In this document: positions 2,312-19,514 of the stretch, one piece after another
Layout: the number at the start of each line of letters is the position of its first letter
Position numbering within the stretch: position 1 is the first letter of the stretch
The notes under the pieces: generated by a model
Databases searched by the model: none
The model's input: the letters and a program-made list of their open reading frames with translations, nothing else
What the model was told of the DNA's origin: nothing
Program-made: the position numbers and the translations under genes
Virus record (IMG/VR): IMGVR_UViG_3300021185_001461
Location: 57,229 to 121,228 of that record
Length of the DNA stretch: 64,000 nucleotides
Reading direction: 5' to 3' (one strand)
DNA from: a virus

Positions 2312-2417
2312 AATACTTTTTCCTACTACTTCCTATTATTATATATGTATTTATCAAAGACAGAGAGTTTTTGCTGCTCAAAGAAAAAGACGCTCTAAAG
2401 CGCCTTTTAAAAAATAA

Positions 2418-2628
2418 GCAAAATAGGTAGGACTCGGTTATACCTACAAGCACGTACACAGAATACCATTCTATCACGCACAACCTAGTTCCGCTCGGTA
2501 GAGCAATGTGATCCTTAGTCTCTCAACCTCGAACCTGGGTACCACCCCTAACTAGTCAAGTTCGACCCTTCTGGTAAAGGCCTCTTCCTTGCACTATAAA
2601 CAAAAGTTAATTATTCTCTTGTTGCTAT
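2418..2628 (-). ncRNA. candidate structured ncRNA (~175-nt core, pseudoknotted), family unassigned
   Basis: ORF-free and GC-richer than its flanks; several complementary segments (see findings); own sigma70 promoter at 2635-2663. Confidence 0.6.
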
Positions 2629-2834: not shown

Positions 2835-2858
2835 AACACTCTTCCTTTTAAAGTTAAG

Positions 2859-2904
2859 TGCGTTCCTTCGCTAGTGCTACTTCCGTCCTAATTTAGGATG
2901 AACG
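2859..2904 (-). promoter_or_regulatory. glutamine-I riboswitch (glnA RNA motif)
   Basis: Minus strand reads CGUUCA-UCCUAAAUUAGGA-CGGAAGUA-GCACUAGC-GAAGGAACGC: P1 CGUUC/GAACG, P2 hairpin, GGAAGUA/GAAG E-loop and short P3, matching the glnA motif as I recall it. Confidence 0.8.
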
Positions 2905-2908
2905 TGAG

Positions 2909-6862: not shown

Positions 6863-7057
6863 CTATGCTTCGGGGCTAGCGCCGTACTGTAGTTGCACAT
6901 CTTCTATCTTATCTGCATGCTCACTACGAGTCATTTCGCGTCTATTACGCATTTTATTTAGATGTTTTAGCGTCAATTTAGGTCTACGAGTATCATCCTC
7001 GTCCCATTTATTGAAGTTATCATCTTGTTCGTTTTGTGCTAATTCATTAAATCGCAT
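6863..7057 (-). CDS. small head-module protein
   Basis: MRFNELAQNE...DTRRPKLTLKHLNKMR...LQYG; the ATG overlaps the end of the portal gene. Confidence 0.7.
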   Translation of the reverse strand: MRFNELAQNEQDDNFNKWDEDDTRRPKLTLKHLNKMRNRREMTRSEHADKIEDVQLQYGASPEA

Positions 7058-8720
7058 CGTCTGGTACTCCTGTGTCTCCACCTAGATCGGCATCGCCACC
7101 GTCTGTTGGTAGATCATCTAATCCTTCGTCACCGGCATTCTCTGCTCCTACATCTGTAGGTTCAAAACTATCTACGTCTGAGCCTCTTAGACCCATTCCG
7201 CCTAAGTCACCTGTTGCCGATCCTGCTGGCTTGTTACCAGCTTGATTTTCTTCTTTCCACATTCTTTCATTCTCAACCATTTCTTCTTCGTTAAGTCCCA
7301 AGTATCTTTGAAGTATAAATCTCTTAGATAAGTATGGAACTGCTTCAATAGAACTGAATAGGTTTGCCTTTTGAGCATCAATTTCAATGTTTCTATATTG
7401 TGAGAAACTTTGTGGTTCAGTAAATGATAAATTAAATAAACTAGCACTAACATCTAGTCCTCTGTGCTTACAGAATAATTTAAACTCGTGGTCTAATGTT
7501 TGTTGTAGTGTTAGTTGTAATCTTTCACAATACTTTGCAAAACGGAATTCTTGGATCATTGCAGTACCAATACGTCCGTCATTAAACGCCGCTATACCGT
7601 CTTCACTTCCAGTTGGAAGGTACGATGTTGGTACACGAAGTCCACGCATTAACTTGTTATTAAAGTACTTTAAATCATCAATCTCACCAAGGTTTTCACC
7701 GCCTGGTAATACTTCAACTTTAGATCCACGTCCTTCTGCTGTTTGGGCAAAGAAGTAATCTTCCATAATTGATAATGGGTTATATGAAGCGTCAACAACT
7801 TTTGTACCACCACCACTCATATTTGGAATACGTGTTTGGTGTACTTCGTTTTTAACTCTTTCCACAAAGCCCATTGCCTTGTGTGCTGGCATGTTACCAA
7901 CATCAATATAAAATACTCTACGTTCTGGTGCACGTTGTACACGATAGATAATAATACTGTCTTCTAATAATTCTTTTTGTTTATATACTTTAAATACTGG
8001 TTCTAGTATACTGTCACCAAATGGCCAGTTACTGTTCATTCCATCACTTAAACTAACATGTACTATATGTTTTGAATCTACTGCAAACTCTGAATTTTGT
8101 CCGCCTGATGAATTTGGTGTTACAATTCCTGCATTTCCTTTGCCAACTGTATAACCTGTTGTTGGATTTACCGCAGTTGCATCAGAATGTTTTTTAGTAT
8201 CAGTTGCAACCATGTCTTGTAAATTAAGTGCAATATTTTTAATAATGTACTGATCAATTTCTCTGCCTTCGCTTTCGTTAACAATAGCTTTGGCAACATC
8301 GCCTGGTTGAACAAATATAAGTTTATATGTTTCTGGATCTCTAATAAAAAACTGATCACCGTATTTGATACATGATCTAAACATAGTAAATATTCTACGT
8401 TCGAGATTATTAATATTAACCCATTGTCTTAGTGTGGTTTCTAATGCAGTTACTTCCGAATCTGTTGGAGTTGTTTTATAGTTGATTTCAAAAGGCAAAC
8501 TTGATTCTGGATCTACTTGTGTACTAAATTCTGCAATAGTATCTAATGCCGCATTAATTTCACTGTCTTGATCCATTTGATCATACTGTGTATAACGCTC
8601 AATACGATTCGGTTGGCCCGAATATACTTCTGGTAACCAACTTTGCCAGCGGTTTGTTTTAGCATTACCACTGCTACTGCCAGATGGGTCGTATTTTGTA
8701 AAGTGTTTTTTCCAACTCAT
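7047..8720 (-). CDS. gp20: portal protein (gp20-like)
   Basis: Motifs LLEDSIIIYRVQRAPERRVFYIDVGNMP, MEDYFF, LPGGENLGEIDDLKYF. Confidence 0.97.
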   Translation of the reverse strand: MSWKKHFTKYDPSGSSSGNAKTNRWQSWLPEVYSGQPNRIERYTQYDQMDQDSEINAALDTIAEFSTQVDPESSLPFEINYKTTPTDSEVTALETTLRQWVNINNLERRIFTMFRSCIKYGDQFFIRDPETYKLIFVQPGDVAKAIVNESEGREIDQYIIKNIALNLQDMVATDTKKHSDATAVNPTTGYTVGKGNAGIVTPNSSGGQNSEFAVDSKHIVHVSLSDGMNSNWPFGDSILEPVFKVYKQKELLEDSIIIYRVQRAPERRVFYIDVGNMPAHKAMGFVERVKNEVHQTRIPNMSGGGTKVVDASYNPLSIMEDYFFAQTAEGRGSKVEVLPGGENLGEIDDLKYFNNKLMRGLRVPTSYLPTGSEDGIAAFNDGRIGTAMIQEFRFAKYCERLQLTLQQTLDHEFKLFCKHRGLDVSASLFNLSFTEPQSFSQYRNIEIDAQKANLFSSIEAVPYLSKRFILQRYLGLNEEEMVENERMWKEENQAGNKPAGSATGDLGGMGLRGSDVDSFEPTDVGAENAGDEGLDDLPTDGGDADLGGDTGVPDDAI

Positions 8721-10906: not shown

Positions 10907-12939
10907 TAAAATGCTCCTTCTGTTCGCCAGTTGCTAGTAAATGAATTACTACCGGGTGCTTGTGCTTTATAATCATTATCTTTTTCTTGTAGTCTAATTA
11001 GATACTCCCTCGAGTCCCTTAATCTATCTTCTAACATCAGATACTGTGTTTCTATTGCTGATATTTGATCTTCAGTCATAAACTCTGTCTGTCCTTCAAT
11101 TATTTCGCCTGCATCATTTTTCCAATTTGGATTTTCAAATTTGTCACGTCTAATAAATTCACCGTCTTCATTCTCAAGAAGGTTGCCTTCGTCGTCGATC
11201 TCATAAAGTAGACCTCTGTTGCCTTCGATTTCTGATGCTAAAGTATCTATGTGTTCGTTTACACGAGTTATTGCGTTAGTTATATTATATTCGTTGACTT
11301 CGGCTAATCGCTTTTGGATGTTTTCTTCCTTCATCTCTGCAACGCCTTCTTCCCATCGTTCTTCGTTTCCAAATGCTCTACTAATTGCACTACCAAAATT
11401 CATAACACCATCTGACAGCACACTAAATCCATGTCCCATTGCAGAAAATCCAGGTGTTAATAATTCTTGTGCATTTTGAAATGCAATTGCCATATTATTC
11501 ATTACTTCAATGCTGGCATCTGATTGATCGGCATAATTAGCAAAGAAATCAGTACTTAATGTATCTAAGTCTGCTCTTAAAAATTCCGTACCACCTGCAG
11601 CAGTTTTGGCTGTAGAAATGAGATCATTGTATTTCTGAAGTTGAGGATCGTTTCCTGTTACTACCATCTCTGAATTTTTTAAAAGCCTAAATATTTCTCT
11701 GTACGCTTCAATTGTTTCTTGTTCGTTTTTAAATTGCCCTGTACCTAATTTTTCTACAAAGCTAATTATTTCTGCTGATGCTCCTGGAGTTGATTGTAAA
11801 GTCTTTATCCATTCTTCACTAATATTATTTGCTGCAGAATCGTCATATGAAATATCACCTACAAATCCTGCTATCATTTCTTCCATAAACATTGCAAAGT
11901 CTGATCCCATAAGTGCTTCATTCATTACTCTAACAGTACCCACTGCGTCATTGATATTTGCCTCTGCAGCCTCGCCGTATGTTTCTTTAATATGTTCTGC
12001 ATTTTGTATCATTGCTACTCTTATATCAACATTTTGTCTTGCTTCGTCTCTGAGTCTAAGTGCTTCTTCTCTTTGCATGCCAAATGCATTAGCAGTAAAC
12101 AACGCAACATTGTTTGCTGTTCTATACGATTCAATTACTCGTTTTTTAGTCTTGTCATTCATAGCAGTAATCTCGCCCAACTCATACAACGTTTGTATTT
12201 CTTGTCCAATAAATCTTGTTTGGTCTTGTATACCCATTCCAAAATCTCTAAAAGTTTTATCAGAATCAATTTCTTTTGCAAATTCGGCCATCCTTAATGC
12301 ACCTGCAAAAGCACTACCTTCGGCTTGTGTAATAAATGATTTTGTTTCAGACATTACATCTTCAAAATCTTTTAAGCCCATTCCTAAATCACGAGTTGCA
12401 TATCTTAAATTACTCCAATGATCTATGTCAGAAACTACTGCACCAAATTCAATTAGTTTTCGTGCTTGCTTTTCTTGTTCTGTTAATAATTTTGCGAATG
12501 TTACACCAAGTCCTGTTGCAACTACAAGAGGAGTACCGGCATGCCTAGCTACTCCTTTTACTATTGCGGCAAATTTACCCATACCAAAGCCCATATTAGA
12601 TACACCAATACCTGCATTTGCTAATAATTTAGCTGCTTCGTGAGATATTTCTGCTACTGCATTGGCTGGGTTAGCATCTGCTATAATCCTTGTTAATGCT
12701 CCTTGCCCAATTACCAATGTTTTTAATGTCGCTGTTCCGGCTTTGCTGGCTTTTCTTTTACCTGTCTTAGTTTCGCGAGCCATTTCTTTTATAGCTGCTG
12801 CGTCTTTTTTACTTAAAACGGCCGCAACGGTACCCATATGAATATTTTGTTCTTGCATATTACCATTTACTTTTTGCATTGTATCCTCGGATGCCCAAGG
12901 GTACATGTTATAAATGGCGTTGATTATATCTTGATTCAT
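10906..12939 (-). CDS. tape-measure-like helical protein, paralog B
   Basis: 677 aa; shares WASE.T, GAVV and MNNM..AF..AQE..T motifs with paralog A. Confidence 0.55.
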   Translation of the reverse strand: MNQDIINAIYNMYPWASEDTMQKVNGNMQEQNIHMGTVAAVLSKKDAAAIKEMARETKTGKRKASKAGTATLKTLVIGQGALTRIIADANPANAVAEISHEAAKLLANAGIGVSNMGFGMGKFAAIVKGVARHAGTPLVVATGLGVTFAKLLTEQEKQARKLIEFGAVVSDIDHWSNLRYATRDLGMGLKDFEDVMSETKSFITQAEGSAFAGALRMAEFAKEIDSDKTFRDFGMGIQDQTRFIGQEIQTLYELGEITAMNDKTKKRVIESYRTANNVALFTANAFGMQREEALRLRDEARQNVDIRVAMIQNAEHIKETYGEAAEANINDAVGTVRVMNEALMGSDFAMFMEEMIAGFVGDISYDDSAANNISEEWIKTLQSTPGASAEIISFVEKLGTGQFKNEQETIEAYREIFRLLKNSEMVVTGNDPQLQKYNDLISTAKTAAGGTEFLRADLDTLSTDFFANYADQSDASIEVMNNMAIAFQNAQELLTPGFSAMGHGFSVLSDGVMNFGSAISRAFGNEERWEEGVAEMKEENIQKRLAEVNEYNITNAITRVNEHIDTLASEIEGNRGLLYEIDDEGNLLENEDGEFIRRDKFENPNWKNDAGEIIEGQTEFMTEDQISAIETQYLMLEDRLRDSREYLIRLQEKDNDYKAQAPGSNSFTSNWRTEGAF

Positions 12940-13889: not shown

Positions 13890-14096
13890 GAAGAAATCGT
13901 AGCATTAATAGAACGTTATAACAACAACCTAAAAGCTATAGAAGGAAGTTACCTTGACATAGTAATTCGTAGTGACGGTGCAGTCAGTTATCAAGACATT
14001 ATGACTATGCCTGTTGATGCTATTAAGTTGTTAGTGGAACGTATGAATGCTAGGGTTGAGGATCTTAACAAAGCCAGAAAAGGCAGTAGACGTTAA
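13857..14096 (+). CDS. gp51: gp51-like ORF, probably translated as a -1 frameshift extension of the gp26-like protein
   Basis: Motif G.VSYQDIMTMP; -1 frame relative to gp26; no ATG with RBS near its 5' end. Confidence 0.6.
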   Translation, partial: FFRGLIASRQPEEIVALIERYNNNLKAIEGSYLDIVIRSDGAVSYQDIMTMPVDAIKLLVERMNARVEDLNKARKGSRR

Positions 14097-14536
14097 TGAC
14101 CCATTATTAGTTTGTAATACTCTTCGGGCCAACTATTATAATATTTAGTATTATCGTGTAAGTGTTTACGCTTTTCTAACAGATCATCTGCACGTTGAAT
14201 AAAAACACAATCAGTAAAATTCTTAACAAAATGACCACTTTGTCTTGTACTAGTAAAGTATAATAAATGTGGATTCTTTTTTCTATACTCCTCGCAAATT
14301 TTTTCTATAGGAGTAATATCATCAATATCACCTAACCAAACAATTCCCATTTGGAATGTTTTGTAATCAAAGTTATCCATTACTGTGATATCTGTTCTGC
14401 CATCGAGAAATTGTAATGCTCTTTTAATTCTGGCACTTTTTGCATATGGACATACAGGATATCCATCATCTTTTAGGGGTTCAACTTGCTGTTCAGCAAA
14501 CTGTAAAAATTTAGTCTGAAATTCGTCCAACGTCAT
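14093..14536 (-). CDS. hypothetical protein with PVCPYA motif (DUF1415-like)
   Basis: 147 aa; GYPVCPYAK motif. Confidence 0.55.
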   Translation of the reverse strand: MTLDEFQTKFLQFAEQQVEPLKDDGYPVCPYAKSARIKRALQFLDGRTDITVMDNFDYKTFQMGIVWLGDIDDITPIEKICEEYRKKNPHLLYFTSTRQSGHFVKNFTDCVFIQRADDLLEKRKHLHDNTKYYNSWPEEYYKLIMGH

Positions 14537-14699
14537 AATATGGTTTATTTGCTTTCATGTAATTGATGTCTACGACATCATCAGTTTCACAAAGCTAACG
14601 CTTTGTTCACTGTTTATGCTTACGCTTCTTAATGTTAGTTAATTGTAATTTAAAGTAAACATTATGTCTTACTGCTATTTATGTGATTGTAAGATGGTT

Positions 14700-15177
14700 A
14701 CTTGGCAAGATATTTTATTCACACTTAGCCTACTACGGGCCAAGTGTAAAATGAGTTCTTGGCATAGAACAGCACCCACAACACCATAGTAAACCTAGTT
14801 TAACACCTAGGAAGGGCGGTTATGCTGTACCCTTATTACATACTGCTTTATTAACGCAGAAACATCCGGAGCCATGGTATCGACTTTTGGACTATCCTCA
14901 AGTTACGAGCGTTCGTAGAGCTTGATCATTTTGATTTGTCAAATCAGTGTATTGACATTTGTAGGCACACCAGTATCTAGTCACGTGAATGCGTAACCTC
15001 AAGGTGAGTCGACCATCGCCGACCAAACGGAGCCTTGTTGCCTTTATTAGTTTTTGTTAGCCTGAGTGTGTTTTAAACTTGCCGGTAATTGCTTGACTTT
15101 ATGTCGATGTGAGTTTTTATATTAGTAATTATCTGATGCTTTAATTATTTGCTTCAAATAAAGTTAAAACGCTAATT
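14700..15177 (-). ncRNA. candidate large structured ncRNA downstream of the GIY-YIG nuclease
   Basis: Lies in a 670-bp ORF-free gap; long-range stems, hairpins and a pseudoknot; dedicated sigma70 promoter. Confidence 0.65.
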
Positions 15178-15183
15178 CTTGTT

Positions 15184-15212
15184 ATAATAACAAAAAAGTT
15201 ATACGTTGTCAA
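15184..15212 (-). promoter_or_regulatory. sigma70-type promoter overlapping the GIY-YIG stop codon
   Basis: TTGACA-17nt-TATTAT on minus, firing into the non-coding gap. Confidence 0.75.
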
Positions 15213-15661
15213 CCTTTTTTCAAATGTTCTGTAAGAATTTTTGAACTTCCTACTCTTACATTTATTATTCCGTTGTAGTACTCATCTGTTTCAAGTACTC
15301 TACGGTCAAATTGTTCTTTTGCTTCCATATAACTTAGTACACCTCTGCTAGGACAATAATGTAATATTTCTCTAGTAAAGTTTTCTGCACCAAATGTTAG
15401 TACATCTGCATTTAAATGATCTGAAGAACCCCAATAGTCTCTCCAGTCACTTTCTTTTGTGCCACGTCTTTTGTTTTTCTTTCCTTTAAGAGGTGGCTTT
15501 GTAGTTTTAAATTTTGCTAGTTTCTTACCAATATACTTTTTATTATTAGTAAGATTTGTAATTAGATAAACAAATCCTTCGCAGTCAGCAGGAAGCTCGT
15601 TTACAACTTCTTTGTTGTAAGTCCACGGGCATTTATCACTGCTCTTCTTTGATCCACTCAT
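15209..15661 (-). CDS. stand-alone GIY-YIG endonuclease (Seg-like catalytic domain only)
   Basis: GFVYLITN...KKYIGKK, YWGSS, conserved Glu helix and YYN; 150 aa with no C-terminal DNA-binding repeats. Confidence 0.85.
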   Translation of the reverse strand: MSGSKKSSDKCPWTYNKEVVNELPADCEGFVYLITNLTNNKKYIGKKLAKFKTTKPPLKGKKNKRRGTKESDWRDYWGSSDHLNADVLTFGAENFTREILHYCPSRGVLSYMEAKEQFDRRVLETDEYYNGIINVRVGSSKILTEHLKKG

Positions 15662-15803
15662 GTACTGCTTTCCTAATTAACTCTATTGTATCTATACCTA
15701 ACTCTTGTTCGTTTATTGTTTCTGGTGCATGCAATAATACAATACTTGCATCTACTATTTCTAGTTCGGGTTGAAATTCTTCTTTGGCTATATGGTTATG
15801 CAT
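15636..15803 (-). CDS. small acidic hypothetical protein (55 aa)
   Basis: Manual translation: MHNHIAKEEFQPELEIVDASIVLLHAPETINEQELGIDTIELIRKAVHEWIKEEQ*; start overlaps the gp46 stop. Confidence 0.6.
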   Translation of the reverse strand: MHNHIAKEEFQPELEIVDASIVLLHAPETINEQELGIDTIELIRKAVHEWIKEEQ

Positions 15804-17571
15804 CAATAACTTCTATTTCGGTATTAAATGTAGTGAAGCCATTTTCTTTAGTGACTTGCAACACACTTTGTACACGACCTACAAGTTCATCACGGTGTGA
15901 AATAAGTAAAATATTCTTTTCTCTGTCACGTTCCATTTTCTTTAATACGCCCAATGCACTTTCAACACCAATTGTGTCCATACCACTATCAACTAATTCA
16001 TCTATACAAACAAAGTTAATAGGATGATTCATACTTTCAAATACATCACGAAAACTCCAACTTAGTCCAAGTATTAATCTATTACGTTCACCTCTTGACA
16101 AGTTATCAAAATCTAAGTCTTGTCCAAGTTGTGTAATTGTTACAGTTAAGTCACTTTGGAATTGTACTTCGTGTGGTAAGCCCAAACGTGTAATATAGTA
16201 TTCTAATCTTTGATTTAAGAACTGTAAGTTTTGCTCAATAATCTTTTTACGAATAAAACTATCTTTGTTTGTAAGTAGTTTCAATAAAAAGTCTTGATGC
16301 TCTCTTAGTTCTTCTAATCTATTTACTTCTGCCCAATTTACTTCTTGTAGGCCAGTTTCTTTTAGACTGTCAATTTGTTCTATGTATGGATTAGTTTCTT
16401 CTTTAGCATTGCTTAACGCAGTTTGTAACTTATCCATTTTGCTTTGATGTTTGTATGCTTCTTGTAATGTGTTATACTCTGTGCGTGGTGCAGTACCTAA
16501 CTCTCCTAAGTCTGCAATTGCAGTATTGTATTCTGTAATCAATTGATTATCATCGTCAATGTGTTTTTGACTTTCATCTACAAGTTCTGTTTTTTGTATT
16601 ACAATTTTATCGTGTTGTTCGTCGTGTATTTCTTGTCCACACGCATAACATTTGTGTTCTAATGTTGAATCTAGATCAGTTTGTGCTTTAGTTAAACGCT
16701 TGCTCTCACGCTCAACACTACTTGTTAGCCTGGCAATTTCAGCAGTTAATGTATCTATTTGATTCTTTTTTTCGTTAAATTTTGTAAATTCTTCGTGTGC
16801 TTGTATTTCAACATCAATGTCAATGTGTTCTAGTGCAGCCAGTTCGCTAGTGCTTTCTTGTATGCGTTCTTGTAATTGTGTAGTCCAAGTTTTTTGTCTA
16901 CGCTCTAAATCTTTAATGCTATTGCCAATACGTTCGTTAGCATCTTCTATGCCTTTGATTCTAAATGTTTCTTCTGTAATTCTGTCTTTAGTACCTTTAA
17001 GTAATTCTTTTAGTATGTCTGCCTTCTCACTAAGTTTAGTAATACCCAACAACTGCTCAATCATTTCACGCTGATCATTTGCTCGCATACTTAAAAATGG
17101 ATCAGTGTAAGTGTTTAATGCAACAATATGTTTAAACATTGTATGACTCATACCAAGTAGTTGTTCAATTACATGTTGACTTTGTCTACCTTCGCCTTGC
17201 ATCTCATCTGTTATGCCTTCGTTGTTGTCTACATCGTTGATTAGATATTTAAATATATTAGGTTTACGTCCACGCTCAATTCTATATGGTGTACCATTTA
17301 CTTCAAAGTCAACAGTAACCATCATATTTTTATTATTAGTTTTGTTAACTAGATTATCTTTTTTAATATTATAAAGTGCGGCACCATATAATGCATAACT
17401 GAGTGCGTTAACAATAGTAGTTTTACCTGTACCATTACGTGAGCCATCGCCACCCAAGTCCAAGTTGTTACCCAACACAAGTGTTAAGCCTGCGTTGTCA
17501 AAGTGAACTGCCTGTGTGACATTGCCCACACTCATAAAATTCTTTACGGTGATATTTTTAATTGTTAGCAT
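15796..17571 (-). CDS. gp46: recombination endonuclease ATPase subunit (gp46/Rad50/SbcC-like)
   Basis: Walker A NGTGKTT, zinc hook CYAC, signature LSRGE, Walker B IDELVD, ISH. Confidence 0.95.
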   Translation of the reverse strand: MLTIKNITVKNFMSVGNVTQAVHFDNAGLTLVLGNNLDLGGDGSRNGTGKTTIVNALSYALYGAALYNIKKDNLVNKTNNKNMMVTVDFEVNGTPYRIERGRKPNIFKYLINDVDNNEGITDEMQGEGRQSQHVIEQLLGMSHTMFKHIVALNTYTDPFLSMRANDQREMIEQLLGITKLSEKADILKELLKGTKDRITEETFRIKGIEDANERIGNSIKDLERRQKTWTTQLQERIQESTSELAALEHIDIDVEIQAHEEFTKFNEKKNQIDTLTAEIARLTSSVERESKRLTKAQTDLDSTLEHKCYACGQEIHDEQHDKIVIQKTELVDESQKHIDDDNQLITEYNTAIADLGELGTAPRTEYNTLQEAYKHQSKMDKLQTALSNAKEETNPYIEQIDSLKETGLQEVNWAEVNRLEELREHQDFLLKLLTNKDSFIRKKIIEQNLQFLNQRLEYYITRLGLPHEVQFQSDLTVTITQLGQDLDFDNLSRGERNRLILGLSWSFRDVFESMNHPINFVCIDELVDSGMDTIGVESALGVLKKMERDREKNILLISHRDELVGRVQSVLQVTKENGFTTFNTEIEVIDA

Positions 17572-17573
17572 GT

Positions 17574-18596
17574 TTAAGTTGTTAGTCCTGTATAAATGTC
17601 TACTAGTATTTGTTTCTTAATAGTATCGCTTTGTACTGATTCAAGCTGCGATAATACAATAGTGTCTACATTTTCTACTTGAATGTCTACACCTTTATTC
17701 CAGTCTTGTGTGTGTTCTTCTTTTTTACTTGGCATAAGATTAATCTCACGCAAGTCATATTGTTTAGCAAATGTTTCTTTAATAAAGTTTGCTTCTTCGT
17801 ATGTAATACCAACATCCAAACTAACACGAGCATGTGTTTTATTACCCAAGTATTTGTCTGGATTATCAATTAGTTTACTTAATGTCAGTGTTCGATACTT
17901 TGGTGCATCTGGCCATGCCAAATATTCAATAGTACCATCCCAATCTAAAAATGTACAACCTCTGTCATCGTCCCATGCATCAGCATAGTTATGTGGGAAA
18001 CAGTTTCCTGGGTAAATTACATTACCACGTTTTTGTCTTTTGTGAAAGTGTCCACTAAACACCATTTCGGGTTTTGCTAAGTCTTCTGCTTTTAATCCAC
18101 CATGGTCTGGCATTTGTACAAGAGCATTCATATAAAATTGTGGTAACTCAAAGTGACCAAACATAAATTTACATTCAACTTCTTTTAGTTTCTTCCACTC
18201 GTCATCACATAGCCAAGGAATAAATGCAACACCATCTTCAATAAACATGTCTTTGTTTATCATACGCAATTTAGGAAAATCTTCAATCATTGATAAACTG
18301 TGTATCTCACGCTTTTCTCTATAATATAGATCGTGATTACCAGTAATCATAATAACTTCATCAAAGCTATCATTTAGTCTGCGTAAATTACTTGTGGTAT
18401 AGTTTAGGGTACTAACATTAATACTTGCACGATTGTGATGCCAATCACCTAAGAAGAAACATTTTTTAATGCCTCGCTTATGTGCTTCGTCAATCATCCA
18501 TATAATAAAATCTTCACAATCCTGATTGTGATATCTACTGTTATTCTTCATGCCGAAGTGTATATCAGTAAAAATTACTGCCTTATCAAAAAACAT
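17574..18596 (-). CDS. gp47: recombination endonuclease nuclease subunit (gp47/Mre11/SbcD-like)
   Basis: Metallophosphoesterase motifs DIHFG, LGDW, GNHD, GHF, SGHFH. Confidence 0.95.
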   Translation of the reverse strand: MFFDKAVIFTDIHFGMKNNSRYHNQDCEDFIIWMIDEAHKRGIKKCFFLGDWHHNRASINVSTLNYTTSNLRRLNDSFDEVIMITGNHDLYYREKREIHSLSMIEDFPKLRMINKDMFIEDGVAFIPWLCDDEWKKLKEVECKFMFGHFELPQFYMNALVQMPDHGGLKAEDLAKPEMVFSGHFHKRQKRGNVIYPGNCFPHNYADAWDDDRGCTFLDWDGTIEYLAWPDAPKYRTLTLSKLIDNPDKYLGNKTHARVSLDVGITYEEANFIKETFAKQYDLREINLMPSKKEEHTQDWNKGVDIQVENVDTIVLSQLESVQSDTIKKQILVDIYTGLTT

Positions 18597-19514
18597 TTAT
18601 TCTCCAGTTTCTTCAGTATCTAAATCTGATGTATCATAAGTCGTTACTTTTAATGTAGGGTTGTTTAATTTTTTCTGTGCTTCATTTCTAATATGAGCTT
18701 CCCACTCTGCATTAAATGTTCGTGTGCTACTTGGATTTAATCCTTCTTCTTCTAGTAAATCGTCTCTAATATTTTGACTACGTTTTTCTAAATTTAAAAC
18801 TCTTGTAAAACTATTGTTAATTGCCGCAGTATAATATGCAAATGGATTCTGTGATTTAAGTTCATTAAACTGTAATCCAATTTGTGCTAGTTGCAATAAT
18901 GCTTGTCCACGCATCTCGTCTACATATGTGTAACCTCTCCAGTTACCACGCATGCTATAACGTTCGCATAGTTTAATATACATTTTTGCTAACATGTCCG
19001 TTGTTTGTCCATGATGAACATTAAAATGTCCATTATCTTTACCACCGTCCCAATGACTACGTGCTACTTCTGTCCAATCACCCTCAATTACAGCATAGTG
19101 CTTAAAAGGAGGAAAGTTACATTTGGAATGTAAGTCAGCTTCTGTTTTTGGTTTGTTTTTTCTATTTTCTTCTGGAATATGGTCAAATGTCATTACCCTT
19201 ACTACAATGTCATCATCATTAATAGTTTCAACATCAACGGCAAAATCAGCAGCTCTTGGCTTAGTTTTTTTACCTGTTAATCCTTGTTCCCATCGAGCTA
19301 CTTCTGCCTGATGTGCTATTTTTTGTAGTCTTGTTGCACGGTTTTGTTTTGCCTCTGCAACTGCTTCAGGGGTAATCTCATCAAATCCAGTTACGATCAA
19401 ATCGTAATGCGTATAGTTTTCGTCTCTACTCCAACAATACGTCATTTTACTGTTATGTATTTCTCTTAACAAATCTTTGTTTGTTAAGTAAAAATTCTTC
19501 TTTGGTTTATTCAT
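18597..19514 (-). CDS. gp55: late-transcription sigma factor (gp55-like)
   Basis: YLTNKDLL, NWRGYTYVDEM, NPFAYYT; gp55-gp47-gp46 gene order. Confidence 0.88.
   Translation of the reverse strand: MNKPKKNFYLTNKDLLREIHNSKMTYCWSRDENYTHYDLIVTGFDEITPEAVAEAKQNRATRLQKIAHQAEVARWEQGLTGKKTKPRAADFAVDVETINDDDIVVRVMTFDHIPEENRKNKPKTEADLHSKCNFPPFKHYAVIEGDWTEVARSHWDGGKDNGHFNVHHGQTTDMLAKMYIKLCERYSMRGNWRGYTYVDEMRGQALLQLAQIGLQFNELKSQNPFAYYTAAINNSFTRVLNLEKRSQNIRDDLLEEEGLNPSSTRTFNAEWEAHIRNEAQKKLNNPTLKVTTYDTSDLDTEETGE

What the first reader, a model, noticed from the sequence alone, without database searches (positions are those of the whole stretch)
14700..15661. Minimal GIY-YIG nuclease followed by a large, separately promoted, pseudoknotted non-coding RNA
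Seen: a 670-bp ORF-free gap in an otherwise tightly packed genome. A TTGACA-17-TATTAT promoter overlapping the nuclease stop codon fires into it. Pairings on the minus-strand transcript: AUGGUCGACU (15016-15007) with AGUCG-au-ACCAU (14885-14874); nested CCUUGAGGUUACG (15004-14992) with CGUAACUUGAGG (14907-14896); hairpin AAGGGU/GCCCUU (14834-14812), whose loop ACAGCAU can pair with GUGCUGU (14775-14769) as a pseudoknot; CCUAG/CUAGG (14811-14794); and an 11-bp 3' hairpin (14748-14720). GACUA (14982-14978) with UAGUC (14894-14890) recalls group I intron P7, but I cannot build the rest of that core. Known: Seg-type GIY-YIG homing endonucleases normally carry extra DNA-binding domains, whereas this one is only the 150-aa catalytic domain. 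Inference: either a nuclease-RNA ribonucleoprotein (analogous to HNH/HEARO-OMEGA pairs), a new ribozyme class, or a structured R-loop primer RNA for a replication origin beside gp46/47.
Basis: partly seen in the sequence, partly recalled or inferred. Interest (0 to 1): 0.85.

Follow-up and report, generated by a model that had tools for sequence, protein, structure and literature searches.

The report
New pseudoknotted RNA in marine phages
The gene-free gap holds a real, strongly conserved, intricately folded non-coding RNA of marine giant phages that matches no known RNA family, but it does not appear to be a dedicated partner of the small nuclease gene beside it.

Summary
The gap (window 14537-15208, minus strand) holds a genuine structured RNA. 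Its core (about 15052-14697) recurs in every related marine phage locus examined. On 50 distinct sequences, 73 base pairs are 97.9% kept (shuffles 88.7%, 0/500) and 25 show compensatory change. On 47 distinct, more divergent sequences, 21 of 27 pairs in the 3' domain covary, including a pseudoknot. Rfam 15 gives no match.

The nuclease-RNA partnership is not supported. The upstream slot holds either the 150-aa GIY-YIG protein or an unrelated PDDEXK_15 nuclease, and it switched at least 6 times on the tree of the downstream gene.

A new and unexplained feature is a 5-9-nt motif present twice, flanking the 3' hairpin. The two copies change together as direct repeats.

Marine metatranscriptome runs hold the core, which is weak evidence of expression.

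Verdict: a new large phage non-coding RNA family of unknown function, most likely a free-standing RNA gene.

The parts
15209..15661 (-). 150-aa GIY-YIG nuclease, catalytic domain only. It fills a nuclease slot that is interchangeable in relatives.
   Evidence: Pfam PF19835 E 1.2e-34, residues 13-133. PHROG 447 and homing-endonuclease PHROGs. The best Foldseek hit of the AF2 model (pLDDT 72) is the I-TevI catalytic domain 1ln0_B, prob 0.91 but E 0.21, not significant. Replaced by PDDEXK_15 in other clades.
15184..15212 (-). Sigma-70-type promoter TTGACA-17-TATTAT overlapping the nuclease stop codon.
   Evidence: 11 of 12 consensus matches, with TG before the -10 box. Conserved in 18 of 20 (-35) and 20 of 20 (T1, A2, T6 of -10) aligned relatives. 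The start site near 15177 is inferred, not mapped.
15053..15183 (-). A+T-rich leader with a conserved block and CUAAY repeats next to the core. Present only in some GIY-YIG clades.
   Evidence: Alignment A1. Absent where the RNA starts right after the nuclease ORF (L093-type and PDDEXK clades).
14898..15024 (-). 5' domain. Pa 15024-15018/15013-15007; Px 15006-15003/14971-14968; Pb 14998-14992/14985-14979; Pc 14956-14952/14942-14938; Pd 14925-14921/14902-14898 with inner hairpin 14917-14913/14908-14904.
   Evidence: compensatory pairs Pa 3 of 7, Pb 5 of 7, Pd 3 of 5; Px and Pc are invariant. In the most divergent clade sequence similarity to the A2 profile begins only at about the Pc position, and the stretch before the pseudoknot domain is about 220-400 nt.
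14782..14892 (-). Pseudoknot domain. Pe 14892-14889/14867-14864 crosses Pf 14879-14872/14789-14782. Pf encloses hairpins Pg 14859-14856/14846-14843, Ph 14834-14829/14817-14812 and Pi 14811-14807/14798-14794.
   Evidence: (47 distinct sequences): 27 pairs, 21 compensatory, 95.9% paired against 79.1% in shuffles (0/500). Pe, which the search model did not contain, is 91% paired with 3 of 4 pairs compensatory. A possible Pg-loop GUUA / Ph-loop UAAC contact is 95% paired with one pair switching A-U to G-C in 8 sequences; this is tentative.
14755..14770 (-). Variable hairpin Pk (GUUCU AUGCCA AGAAC) carrying the proximal copy of the co-varying motif (UGCCAAG).
   Evidence: Stem seen by eye across clades. 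Repeat statistics.
14718..14750 (-). 13-bp 3' hairpin Pj with a near-invariant 3' strand (AAGUGUGAAU).
   Evidence: 97.7% paired, 1 compensatory pair, 7 pairs never vary. Further compensatory changes seen by eye in divergent members.
14697..14710 (-). Distal copy of the motif (UCUUGCCAAGUAAC), a direct repeat of the Pk loop plus 3' strand.
   Evidence: longest shared word between the proximal and distal regions of the same sequence averages 6.8 nt against 4.9 nt between clusters (18 clusters; 0 of 10,000 permutations as high). 9-mers are shared in L215, L180, L018 and L032. No complementary site within 5.4 kb for the L215 and L180 9-mers.
14676..14683 (-). CATAAATA, a T4-type late-promoter-like box between the RNA and the downstream gene.
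   Evidence: [C/T]ATAAATA occurs within 400 nt upstream of the downstream gene in 54 of 79 loci. It lies about 10-20 nt before the start codon in the RNA-less loci L168, L206, L208 and L211. The TATAAATA consensus is recalled, not tested.
14564..14612 (-). Two covarying hairpins in the leader of the downstream gene: 14612-14582 and 14580-14564.
   Evidence: pairs 711/738 (9 sequences with both sides changed), 712/737 (6), 715/733 (5), 716/732 (4), 718/730 (4), 746/755 (8). Similar hairpins seen by eye in divergent loci.
14093..14536 (-). orf147, the conserved downstream protein of unknown function.
   Evidence: No Pfam family. AF2 pLDDT 85.7. Best Foldseek PDB E 0.055. Atlas look-alike clusters (feature search) are all viral hypothetical proteins; this protein is held letter for letter. 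Occurs without the RNA in 8 of 80 loci.

Best explanation
The gap encodes a new family of large, pseudoknotted, phage-encoded non-coding RNA. It is a gene in its own right, read on the minus strand.

Transcription. In the window's clade it is transcribed from its own host-type (sigma-70-like) promoter, which overlaps the stop codon of the upstream nuclease gene. In other clades it starts directly after the nuclease ORF and is probably co-transcribed and processed.

Fold. The conserved part is about 330-355 nt. It consists of a 5' domain of local helices, a 3' domain in which an H-type pseudoknot (Pe/Pf) encloses three hairpins with near-invariant loops, a variable hairpin (Pk) and a long 3' hairpin (Pj).

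Likely mode of action (inferred). The RNA acts as a stable folded molecule in trans. The invariant loops and junctions would form a tertiary core that binds a protein, ligand or RNA. The two identical purine-rich motifs, one in the Pk loop and one just after Pj, would be recognised by two copies of one partner.

The neighbouring nuclease. It is not a dedicated partner of the RNA. It occupies a slot next to the recombination genes gp47/gp46 that is always filled, by either a minimal GIY-YIG or a PDDEXK_15 nuclease, and that has been exchanged repeatedly. The slot is therefore either a required structure-specific (resolvase-like) nuclease with non-orthologous replacement, or a pair of competing free-standing homing-type nucleases parked beside a highly conserved RNA gene, as SegB sits in the T4 tRNA cluster.

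Shown: conservation, fold, pseudoknot, synteny, nuclease turnover, and presence in RNA libraries. Inferred: transcript ends, action in trans, the role of the repeats, and the nuclease's role.
For: Conservation beyond the neighbours:
- The gap matches 29 of the 31 loci then held, at 70-100% nucleotide identity.
- In L027 the gap is 84.8% identical in nucleotides, while orf147 is 52% identical in protein.

Context-free motif scans find the RNA only in this synteny: 52, 58 and 52 stretches in viral contigs and 50 in metagenomes (contexts).

Family size:
- nhmmer hits 141 loci, with 123 full cores and 50 distinct sequences.
- 72 of 80 loci found through orf147 relatives also carry it.
- The covariance model R1 finds the pseudoknot domain in 18 of 26 divergent marine loci.

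Structure:
- 73 pairs, 97.9% paired against 88.7% in shuffles, 25 compensatory pairs, 336 compensatory cells against 100 expected, 0/500. Slid controls give 30-40% paired.
- 27 pairs, 21 compensatory, 95.9% against 79.1%, 0/500, including the unmodelled pseudoknot helix Pe.

No known family: Rfam 15 shows nothing in the gap at E <= 10 or in the window at gathering score, and only one sub-threshold chance match outside the RNA in 8 divergent loci. No tRNA or tmRNA was found.

The promoter is confirmed.

Expression hint: 13 runs labelled RNA, from at least 10 studies, hold part of 14690-15100. In all 4 RNA runs laid, contigs with 0 differences lie within 14772-15106.

Not coupled to orf147: 8 of 80 orf147 loci have no RNA, no gp46 and no nuclease within 2.5 kb, and a late-promoter-like box lies between the RNA and orf147.

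Nuclease turnover:
- The loci are redundant fetches: 169 have GIY-YIG plus the RNA, 33 have PDDEXK plus the RNA, 11 have the RNA with a short flank, and 0 have the RNA with a full flank and no nuclease.
- PDDEXK_15 PF24608 scores E 8e-25, and PHROG 244 is labelled 'RusA-like Holliday junction resolvase'.
- On the orf147 tree of 76 rows the PDDEXK label needs 9 changes, at least 6 of them forced by well-supported branches.

Repeats co-vary.
Against: - No transcript ends, strand or abundance are known. The run data are contigs from runs picked with this very stretch, DNA can be present in RNA libraries, and the flanks also carry some contigs.
- Action in trans is inferred only. The RNA always lies downstream of a nuclease gene and upstream of orf147 in the clade that has it, so a cis role (3' UTR of the nuclease mRNA, a processing site, or an origin) is not excluded.
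- No partner for the repeated motif was found. For the 9-mers of L215 and L180 there is no complement within 5.4 kb, and no position of a complement recurs across all clades.
- Relatedness of the sequences inflates shuffle statistics. R-scape was not available.
- All family members come from one clade of uncultured marine phages (gp46 66-100% identical), so synteny is not independent evidence.
- Short pieces of this RNA may already be listed, unnamed, in a published catalogue of 8,495 IMG/VR candidate RNAs of 29-151 nt (PMC10690425, passages read).
Confidence: 0.6

Rival explanations
1. Nuclease-RNA module. The RNA works together with whichever nuclease precedes it, as a guide, activator, inhibitor/antidote or self-immunity element. 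The RNA would be the constant component and the nuclease the interchangeable one.
For: Every locus with the RNA and enough upstream flank has a nuclease gene directly upstream: 202 of 202 redundant loci, and 64 of 64 distinct orf147 variants with a scorable flank. No empty slot was seen, which is unusual for purely selfish homing genes. In some clades the RNA starts about 10 nt after the nuclease stop codon.
Against: The two nucleases have unrelated folds (GIY-YIG and PDDEXK_15), so a shared specific RNA-binding surface is unlikely. The slot switched at least 6 times. A homologue 81% identical to the GIY-YIG over 137 aligned residues lies beside nrd genes in phage Melnitz, with no RNA match in the 8.4 kb fetched. 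Neither protein has a recognisable RNA-binding or extra domain in Pfam. All loci belong to one syntenic clade.
Confidence: 0.1
2. Replication-origin element. A strong promoter fires a structured RNA into two co-evolving direct repeats (iteron-like protein-binding sites) and an A+T-rich stretch, so that the RNA primes or activates DNA replication, in the manner of ColE1 RNA II or T4 R-loop origins.
For: The two copies of the motif change together as direct repeats, which is how iterons behave. An A+T-rich, length-variable spacer follows at 14700-14630. The promoter is strong. Recombination genes gp46/gp47 are adjacent. The fast-evolving orf147 next door could be the binding protein; this is inference.
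Against: There are only two repeats. The proximal copy lies in an RNA hairpin whose stem covaries, which is an RNA-level constraint. The compensatory changes throughout show selection on the folded RNA, which a simple R-loop does not need. The cumulative GC-skew minimum lies 4-6 kb away at a change of gene orientation, not at the RNA. orf147 has no detectable DNA-binding fold and also occurs without the repeats or the RNA.
Confidence: 0.12
3. Cis-acting mRNA element. The RNA is a 3' UTR or processing and stability element of the nuclease transcript, or a long regulatory leader (riboswitch-like) of orf147.
For: The position between the two genes is invariant. Clades without their own promoter must co-transcribe it with the nuclease. 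The window also carries known cis-regulatory RNAs, manA and the glutamine riboswitch.
Against: The window's clade has its own conserved promoter. A late-promoter-like box and a variable spacer separate the RNA from orf147, and orf147 has its own covarying leader hairpins. orf147 occurs without the RNA in 8 of 80 loci. The size (330 to over 600 nt), the pseudoknot and about half of the core positions being invariant are atypical of UTR stabilisers.
Confidence: 0.1
4. Catalytic RNA. Either a new self-cleaving or self-splicing ribozyme, or a degenerate group-I-like intron that travels with its endonuclease gene.
For: The Pe/Pf order (5'Pe, 5'Pf, 3'Pe, hairpins, 3'Pf) has the same topology as P3/P7/P8 of group I introns. 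An endonuclease gene is adjacent, as in intron-encoded I-TevI, which is the best structural hit. Loops and junctions are highly conserved.
Against: No Rfam intron or ribozyme model matches at E <= 10. Only 9 nt lie where P4-P6 would be. No interrupted host gene exists: gp46 is complete and orf147 homologues start at residue 1 in loci that lack the element.
Confidence: 0.06

Closest known systems
GOLLD and ROOL, large structured non-coding RNAs of phages and prophages (recalled knowledge; both are in Rfam)
   Same: Several hundred nucleotides long, multi-domain, complex fold with many conserved unpaired positions, phage-borne, function unknown, found by comparative genomics.
   Different: No Rfam match to either. 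No tRNA genes nearby, whereas GOLLD and ROOL often neighbour tRNAs (recalled). A different host range (uncultured marine phage contigs). Carries a pair of co-varying direct-repeat motifs, which I do not recall being described for those RNAs.
T4 SegB, a GIY-YIG homing endonuclease gene embedded in the tRNA / small-RNA gene cluster (PMC2330249, abstract seen in the search listing)
   Same: A Seg-type GIY-YIG gene sits beside highly conserved structured-RNA genes in a T4-like phage. The linkage there reflects homing and co-conversion of flanks, not an RNA-protein complex.
   Different: The protein here has only the catalytic domain (150 aa). The slot is never empty and alternates with a PDDEXK nuclease. 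Site-specific cleavage was not tested.
HEARO / omega-RNA with IscB
   Same: A large structured RNA encoded next to a nuclease gene.
   Different: No HEARO match in Rfam. The nuclease is not one co-evolving family but two unrelated, swapped ones. No guide-like variable 5' end bordering a transposon end was seen. The RNA lies downstream of the nuclease and has its own promoter.
Group I intron core (P3-P7 pseudoknot with P8)
   Same: Same strand order of the two crossing helices, with hairpins between them.
   Different: No P4-P6 between the strands, no P1/guide, no flanking exons, no Rfam hit.
Lambda-type iterons and ColE1 RNA II primer (recalled)
   Same: Direct repeats that are alike within a genome and differ between relatives. 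A promoter-driven structured RNA next to an A+T-rich stretch.
   Different: Only two short repeats. One lies in a covarying RNA hairpin. No initiator protein was identified and no skew signal was found.

Membership tests
Any Rfam 15 RNA family (incl. group I/II introns, GIR1, HEARO, GOLLD, ROOL, RNase P, tmRNA, riboswitches) | Covariance-model match at or near the family's gathering score | tested here: not met
   No match inside 14537-15208 at E <= 10. None at gathering score. In 8 divergent loci only a 24-bit chance hit to PK-BYV, outside the RNA.
Group I intron | P4-P6 domain between the 5' strands of P3 and P7; P1 with guide sequence; interrupted host gene | tested here: not met
   Only 9 nt lie between 5' Pe and 5' Pf. 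gp46 is complete. orf147 homologues begin at residue 1 in loci that lack the element.
Group I intron | Two crossing helices in the order P3-P7-P3'-P8-P7' | tested here: met
   Pe and Pf cross in this order and both covary. This is a topology only and does not establish membership.
HEARO/omega-RNA-type nuclease-RNA pair | RNA co-occurs with one cognate nuclease family across relatives | tested here: not met
   The RNA follows GIY-YIG in 169 and PDDEXK_15 in 33 redundant loci, with at least 6 switches. A GIY-YIG homologue occurs in Melnitz without the RNA in the 8.4 kb fetched.
GIY-YIG nuclease superfamily (protein) | Match to a GIY-YIG domain profile | tested here: met
   PF19835 SegE_GIY-YIG E 1.2e-34 (cut-off 25 bits, score 119.7). 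PF01541 is only 16.2 bits, below its cut-off. The divergent homologue in L095 scores E 1.2e-32.
GIY-YIG nuclease superfamily (protein) | GIY and YIG motifs and conserved Arg/Glu/Asn of the active site | tested here: inconclusive
   Among 17 homologues F30 V31 Y32 ('GFVY'), Y43 and G45 ('KYIGKK'), N130 and R136 are invariant, and E98 is at least 90% conserved. Assigning these residues to catalytic roles rests on recall. The PDB sequence and profile searches gave no aligned template. The best fold hit is the I-TevI catalytic domain, but with E 0.21.
Seg-type free-standing homing endonuclease | C-terminal DNA-binding domain(s) after the catalytic domain | tested here: not met
   The protein is 150 aa and the Pfam domain covers residues 13-133. 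No second domain is present.
Seg-type free-standing homing endonuclease | Sporadic, horizontally mobile distribution | tested here: inconclusive
   For: 74.5% nucleotide identity to a gene at another locus of an unrelated phage, and repeated exchange with PDDEXK_15. Against: the slot is never empty, and the protein is 78-100% identical in step with gp46 within the close clade.
Seg-type free-standing homing endonuclease | Site-specific cleavage of nuclease-less relatives near the insertion site | not testable with these tools
   Needs purified protein and target DNA.
Holliday-junction resolvase slot (functional class) | Structure-specific cleavage of branched DNA | not testable with these tools
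   Indirect only. The alternative occupant matches PHROG 244, labelled 'RusA-like Holliday junction resolvase'. PA5oct and Phosso have annotated resolvases within about 1-2 kb of their gp46 homologues.
Intrinsic terminator | G+C-rich hairpin followed directly by a U run at the RNA's 3' end | tested here: not met
   Pj is followed by UAAAAUAUCUUG. The scan reports only Pi, which is an internal helix, as terminator-like.

The most novel reading that the evidence does not exclude
The RNA is the constant core of a new kind of module in giant marine phages. It would be a large pseudoknotted RNA that must always be accompanied by a DNA nuclease of any fold. For example, it could license, restrain or target the junction- or DNA-cutting enzyme, or act as a ribozyme/RNP in recombination-dependent replication. 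Its two identical, rapidly co-evolving motifs would act as paired recognition sites for a nucleic-acid partner.
Probability: 0.1. Interest if true: 0.9.

Novelty: new member of a known kind. Interest (0 to 1): 0.68.

Why it matters
Large non-coding RNAs with complex folds are rare, and each new class has tended to reveal new biochemistry. This one has unusually strong comparative support:
- dozens of compensatory base pairs;
- a covarying pseudoknot;
- about half of the core positions invariant;
- a family of at least 50 distinct close sequences plus more divergent members with expanded 5' domains;
- traces in marine metatranscriptomes.

It belongs to uncultured marine phages that appear to have very large genomes, a group whose biology is almost unknown.

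Two side results can be tested directly:
- A pair of direct-repeat motifs co-vary. This points to a common partner and gives a handle for finding the RNA's target.
- A nuclease slot beside gp46/gp47 is always filled but is repeatedly swapped between GIY-YIG and PDDEXK proteins. This bears on how T4-like phages without endonuclease VII resolve branched DNA, or on competition between homing genes.

If the RNA proves to be only a UTR element, the interest drops to that of a well-supported cis-regulatory motif.

Tried and rejected
- Rfam, tRNA and tmRNA: nothing in the gap.
- GenBank phage isolates: blastn of 14500-15700 matched only the nuclease ORF, in 6 of 50,697 records, and nothing in the RNA.
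- Prokaryote species genomes: the motif pattern gave 0 stretches.
- PA5oct and Phosso, the nearest isolates by gp46 at about 50% identity, have large unannotated gaps near gp46. Neither nhmmer nor model R1 matches there, and orf147 has no homologue there. The four ncRNAs reported for PA5oct lie elsewhere in its genome (PMC7318152, passages read).
- Five RNA-less relatives' records (30-82 kb fragments): no R1 match. One has gp46 at 53% identity, 53 kb from orf147, with no nuclease or RNA after it. These records are fragments, so absence from the whole genomes is not shown.
- orf147 function: no Pfam hit, no PDB sequence hit, no significant fold match, and only viral hypothetical clusters.
- Partner for the repeated motif: no consistent complementary site in cis. 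A 10-nt complement at G000 position 12469 is expected by chance about 0.2 times, by my own arithmetic, and was not pursued.
- GC skew as an origin signal: the minimum lies 4-6 kb away at a change of gene strand.
- Contig cover: no contig was laid on 14540-14693 in the four runs. Contigs cannot give transcript ends or levels, so nothing was concluded from this.
- A literature search with too loose a setting gave nothing useful.
- No complex prediction was run.
Full report
**What the window is**

The locus lies in a T4-like gene block on the minus strand:
- a 305-aa ORF at 18597-19514, read as gp55-like by position only (the PA5oct homologous block has a late sigma factor there);
- gp47 (17574-18596), read from its sequence and from the SbcD-like gene at the same place in PA5oct; no profile search was run on it;
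- gp46 (15796-17571; AAA_23/SMC_N);
- a 56-aa ORF;
- a 150-aa GIY-YIG ORF (15209-15661);
- the 672-nt gap;
- a 147-aa ORF (14093-14536);
- then convergent baseplate genes (T4_baseplate).

The window is part of a 121-kb virus record that CheckV rates 33% complete. The genome is therefore probably several hundred kb; this is inference. The nearest isolates by gp46 are jumbo phages at about 50% identity: PA5oct, Phosso and Atu_ph07. Every relative of the RNA locus came from viral or metagenome contigs, and the runs that hold the RNA are marine or seawater metatranscriptomes.

**Checking the observation**

The gap is real and non-coding. It holds only ORFs of 34-42 aa, and relatives differ there by 1- and 2-nt indels.

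The promoter TTGACA-17-TATTAT at 15212-15184 matches 11 of 12 consensus positions and is the best in the 2-kb scan. Among 20 aligned relatives, TTGACA is kept in 18 and T1/A2/T6 of the -10 box in all 20.

The minus strand folds far better than shuffles (z = -5.0). The plus strand does not (z = -0.54). Each used only 20 shuffles. G+C rises to 40-47% between 14700 and 15100, against about 22-35% in the flanks.

**Conservation**

The gap matched 29 of the 31 loci then held, at 70-100% nucleotide identity. It is often better kept than the neighbouring proteins. In L027 the gap is 84.8% identical in DNA, while orf147 is 52% identical in protein.

Scans with invariant motifs do not depend on the flanking genes. 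They gave 52, 58 and 52 stretches in viral contigs and 50 in metagenome contigs. They gave none in 185,579 prokaryote species genomes. Many stretches are the same contigs fetched more than once.

A profile search hit 141 loci, with 123 full-length cores and 50 distinct sequences. A search through relatives of orf147 added 80 loci. Of these, 72 carry the RNA by nhmmer. The covariance model of the 3' domain (R1) found it in 18 of 26 divergent loci and in neither PA5oct nor Phosso.

**Structure**

A scan of all column pairs and RNAalifold gave a consistent set of helices, listed under 'parts'.

Counted on 50 distinct sequences:
- 73 pairs are 97.9% standard pairs, against 88.7% in shuffles (0 of 500 as high).
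- 25 pairs have changes on both sides.
- 336 compensatory cells were seen, against 100 expected.
- Sliding the partners by 1-3 columns drops pairing to 30-40%.

For the 3' domain on 47 distinct and more divergent sequences:
- 21 of 27 pairs are compensatory.
- 95.9% are paired, against 79.1% in shuffles (0/500).
- Helix Pe was not in the search model, so the alignment was not fitted to it. It is still 91% paired, with 3 of 4 pairs compensatory.
- Pe (14892-14889/14867-14864) crosses Pf (14879-14872/14789-14782), so the domain is a genuine pseudoknot enclosing hairpins Pg, Ph and Pi.

A four-base contact between the Pg loop (GUUA) and the Ph loop (UAAC) is 95% paired. One position switches from A-U to G-C in 8 sequences. 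I treat this as tentative.

These shuffle tests do not correct for relatedness of the sequences. The slid controls do keep relatedness.

Three local hairpins are right: 14834-14812, 14811-14794 and the 3' hairpin.

The two long-range helices, the 'P7' pairing and the loop pseudoknot are 75.2% paired, the same as shuffles (214 of 500 as high). The long helices have no compensatory pair. Their bases belong to the local helices Pa, Pb, Pd, Pe and Pf.

**Known families**

Rfam 15 gives nothing in the gap even at E <= 10. It gives nothing relevant in 8 divergent loci. There is no tRNA or tmRNA.

The Pe/Pf order resembles P3/P7 of group I introns. However, only 9 nt lie where P4-P6 should be, and no gene is interrupted.

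A published catalogue of candidate RNAs from IMG/VR lists 8,495 motifs of 29-151 nt (PMC10690425, passages read). Parts of this RNA could be among them. The supplements were closed, so I cannot say.

**The neighbours**

The upstream slot is the most informative neighbour. In 9 of the first 52 motif hits the GIY-YIG is replaced by a 181-aa ORF. That ORF matches Pfam PDDEXK_15 (E 8e-25) and PHROG 244, labelled 'RusA-like Holliday junction resolvase'.

Over all loci, which include redundant fetches:
- 169 have GIY-YIG plus the RNA;
- 33 have PDDEXK plus the RNA;
- 11 have the RNA with too short a flank to judge;
- 8 have neither the RNA, nor a nuclease, nor gp46;
- none has the RNA with a full flank and no nuclease.

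On a tree of 76 distinct orf147 proteins, the PDDEXK label needs 9 changes, and at least 6 are forced by well-supported branches. The tree is from a neighbouring gene of only 147 columns, and recombination may blur it.

The GIY-YIG itself has a homologue that is 81% identical in protein over 137 aligned residues and 74.5% identical in DNA. It lies next to the nrd genes of phage Melnitz, and no RNA match was found within the 8.4 kb fetched there.

The protein is the catalytic domain only (Pfam match at residues 13-133 of 150). Its model (pLDDT 72) is closest to the I-TevI catalytic domain, but not significantly so (E 0.21, prob 0.91).

Two unrelated nuclease folds swapping beside one constant RNA argues against a dedicated RNA-protein pair. 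Two readings of the slot remain:
- A needed structure-specific nuclease with non-orthologous replacement. This fits the never-empty slot, the resolvase label, and the annotated resolvases near gp46 in PA5oct and Phosso.
- Competing free-standing homing-type genes beside a conserved RNA gene, as SegB in the T4 tRNA cluster (PMC2330249, abstract). This fits the horizontal spread and the turnover.

**Downstream**

orf147 is not tied to the RNA. In 8 of 80 loci it stands behind another gene, with no RNA, nuclease or gp46 within 2.5 kb. In four of these (L168, L206, L208, L211) a TATAAATA-like box lies about 10-20 nt before the start codon. Five of those records (30-82 kb fragments) have no R1 match at all.

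In the window a CATAAATA box (14683-14676) and two covarying hairpins (14612-14564) lie between the RNA and orf147. The RNA is therefore probably not the leader of orf147.

The function of orf147 remains unknown.

**An unexplained feature**

The loop and 3' strand of hairpin Pk (UCUAUGCCAAGAAC) recur just after hairpin Pj (UCU-UGCCAAGUAAC). Across clades both copies change together as direct repeats, not as complements:
- UGCCAAG, UGUCAAG, GGUGAAG and GGGAAAU;
- GGCGAAAU (L193);
- GGUUAAAGU (L215);
- GGGAAAAGU (L180).

These variants appear.

Over 18 clusters, the longest word shared within a sequence averages 6.8 nt, against 4.9 nt between clusters. None of 10,000 permutations reached this value.

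No complementary site exists within 5.4 kb for the 9-mers of L215 and L180. No position of a complement recurs across all clades.

The simplest reading is that both copies are recognised by one partner that co-evolves. That partner could be a nucleic acid encoded elsewhere or an iteron-type binding protein. This is inference.

**Expression**

Thirteen runs labelled RNA, from at least 10 studies, hold part of 14690-15100. In the four RNA runs laid, contigs with no differences lie within 14772-15106 in every run.

These are contigs from runs chosen with this stretch, and RNA libraries can contain DNA. This is therefore only a weak hint and says nothing about strand, transcript ends or level.

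**Verdict**

- The RNA is real. I put this at about 0.95. It is new to Rfam and to the isolates searched.
- It is most likely an independent, stable, folded RNA. The full best explanation carries confidence 0.6.
- The ribonucleoprotein reading with the GIY-YIG is unlikely (about 0.1).
- The origin, cis-element and ribozyme readings remain open at low odds.

Noticed in passing
window 2417-2622 (-) and 2857-2906 (-): Rfam matches above gathering score to manA RNA (59.8 bits) and to the glutamine riboswitch aptamer (52.5 bits). From recall, both are known from marine phages and cyanobacteria, which fits the marine origin.
   Followed up: no
window 14564-14612 (-): Two hairpins about 30-75 nt upstream of the orf147 start codon show many compensatory changes. 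They recur with GCUCGAAGAGC- or GUCGUAGAC-like tops in divergent loci. They are a separate small cis element of the late mRNA leader.
   Followed up: partly
window 15040-15075 (-); L028, L035, L092 and L223 upstream of the core: Two to four copies of a CUAAC/CUAAU-containing, C/A-rich motif (ACUAACACA) lie immediately 5' of the structured core. L223 also has three tandem copies of a 23-nt unit (ACAGACACCAAGUCAAUUCAAGC) in its leader.
   Followed up: no
L182, L197, L205, L213, L215, L218 (about 220-400 nt before the pseudoknot domain): The most divergent clade has a much longer stretch before the pseudoknot domain, sharing blocks such as AAGGUUGGCACGCCAG...GACGGUAAGCAA, in place of Pa-Pc. Its fold was not analysed.
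   Followed up: no
L085 (PA5oct) 7368-8030; L086 (Phosso) 6911-7924: The isolates nearest by gp46 have unannotated gaps of 664 bp and about 1 kb a few kb from gp46, next to or near annotated Holliday-junction resolvase genes and, in Phosso, RNase HI. They show no sequence or model similarity to this RNA. Whether they hold analogous RNAs is unknown.
   Followed up: partly
window 15636-15806 (-): A 56-aa ORF overlaps the end of gp46 and the start of the nuclease gene. It is conserved only weakly (36-100% identity) and no match was found in some clades. It has no family match.
   Followed up: no
window 15128-15157 (-): A second promoter-like site, TTGAAG-18-GATAAT (9 of 12 matches), lies inside the highly conserved A+T-rich leader block. 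It may be a tandem promoter.
   Followed up: no
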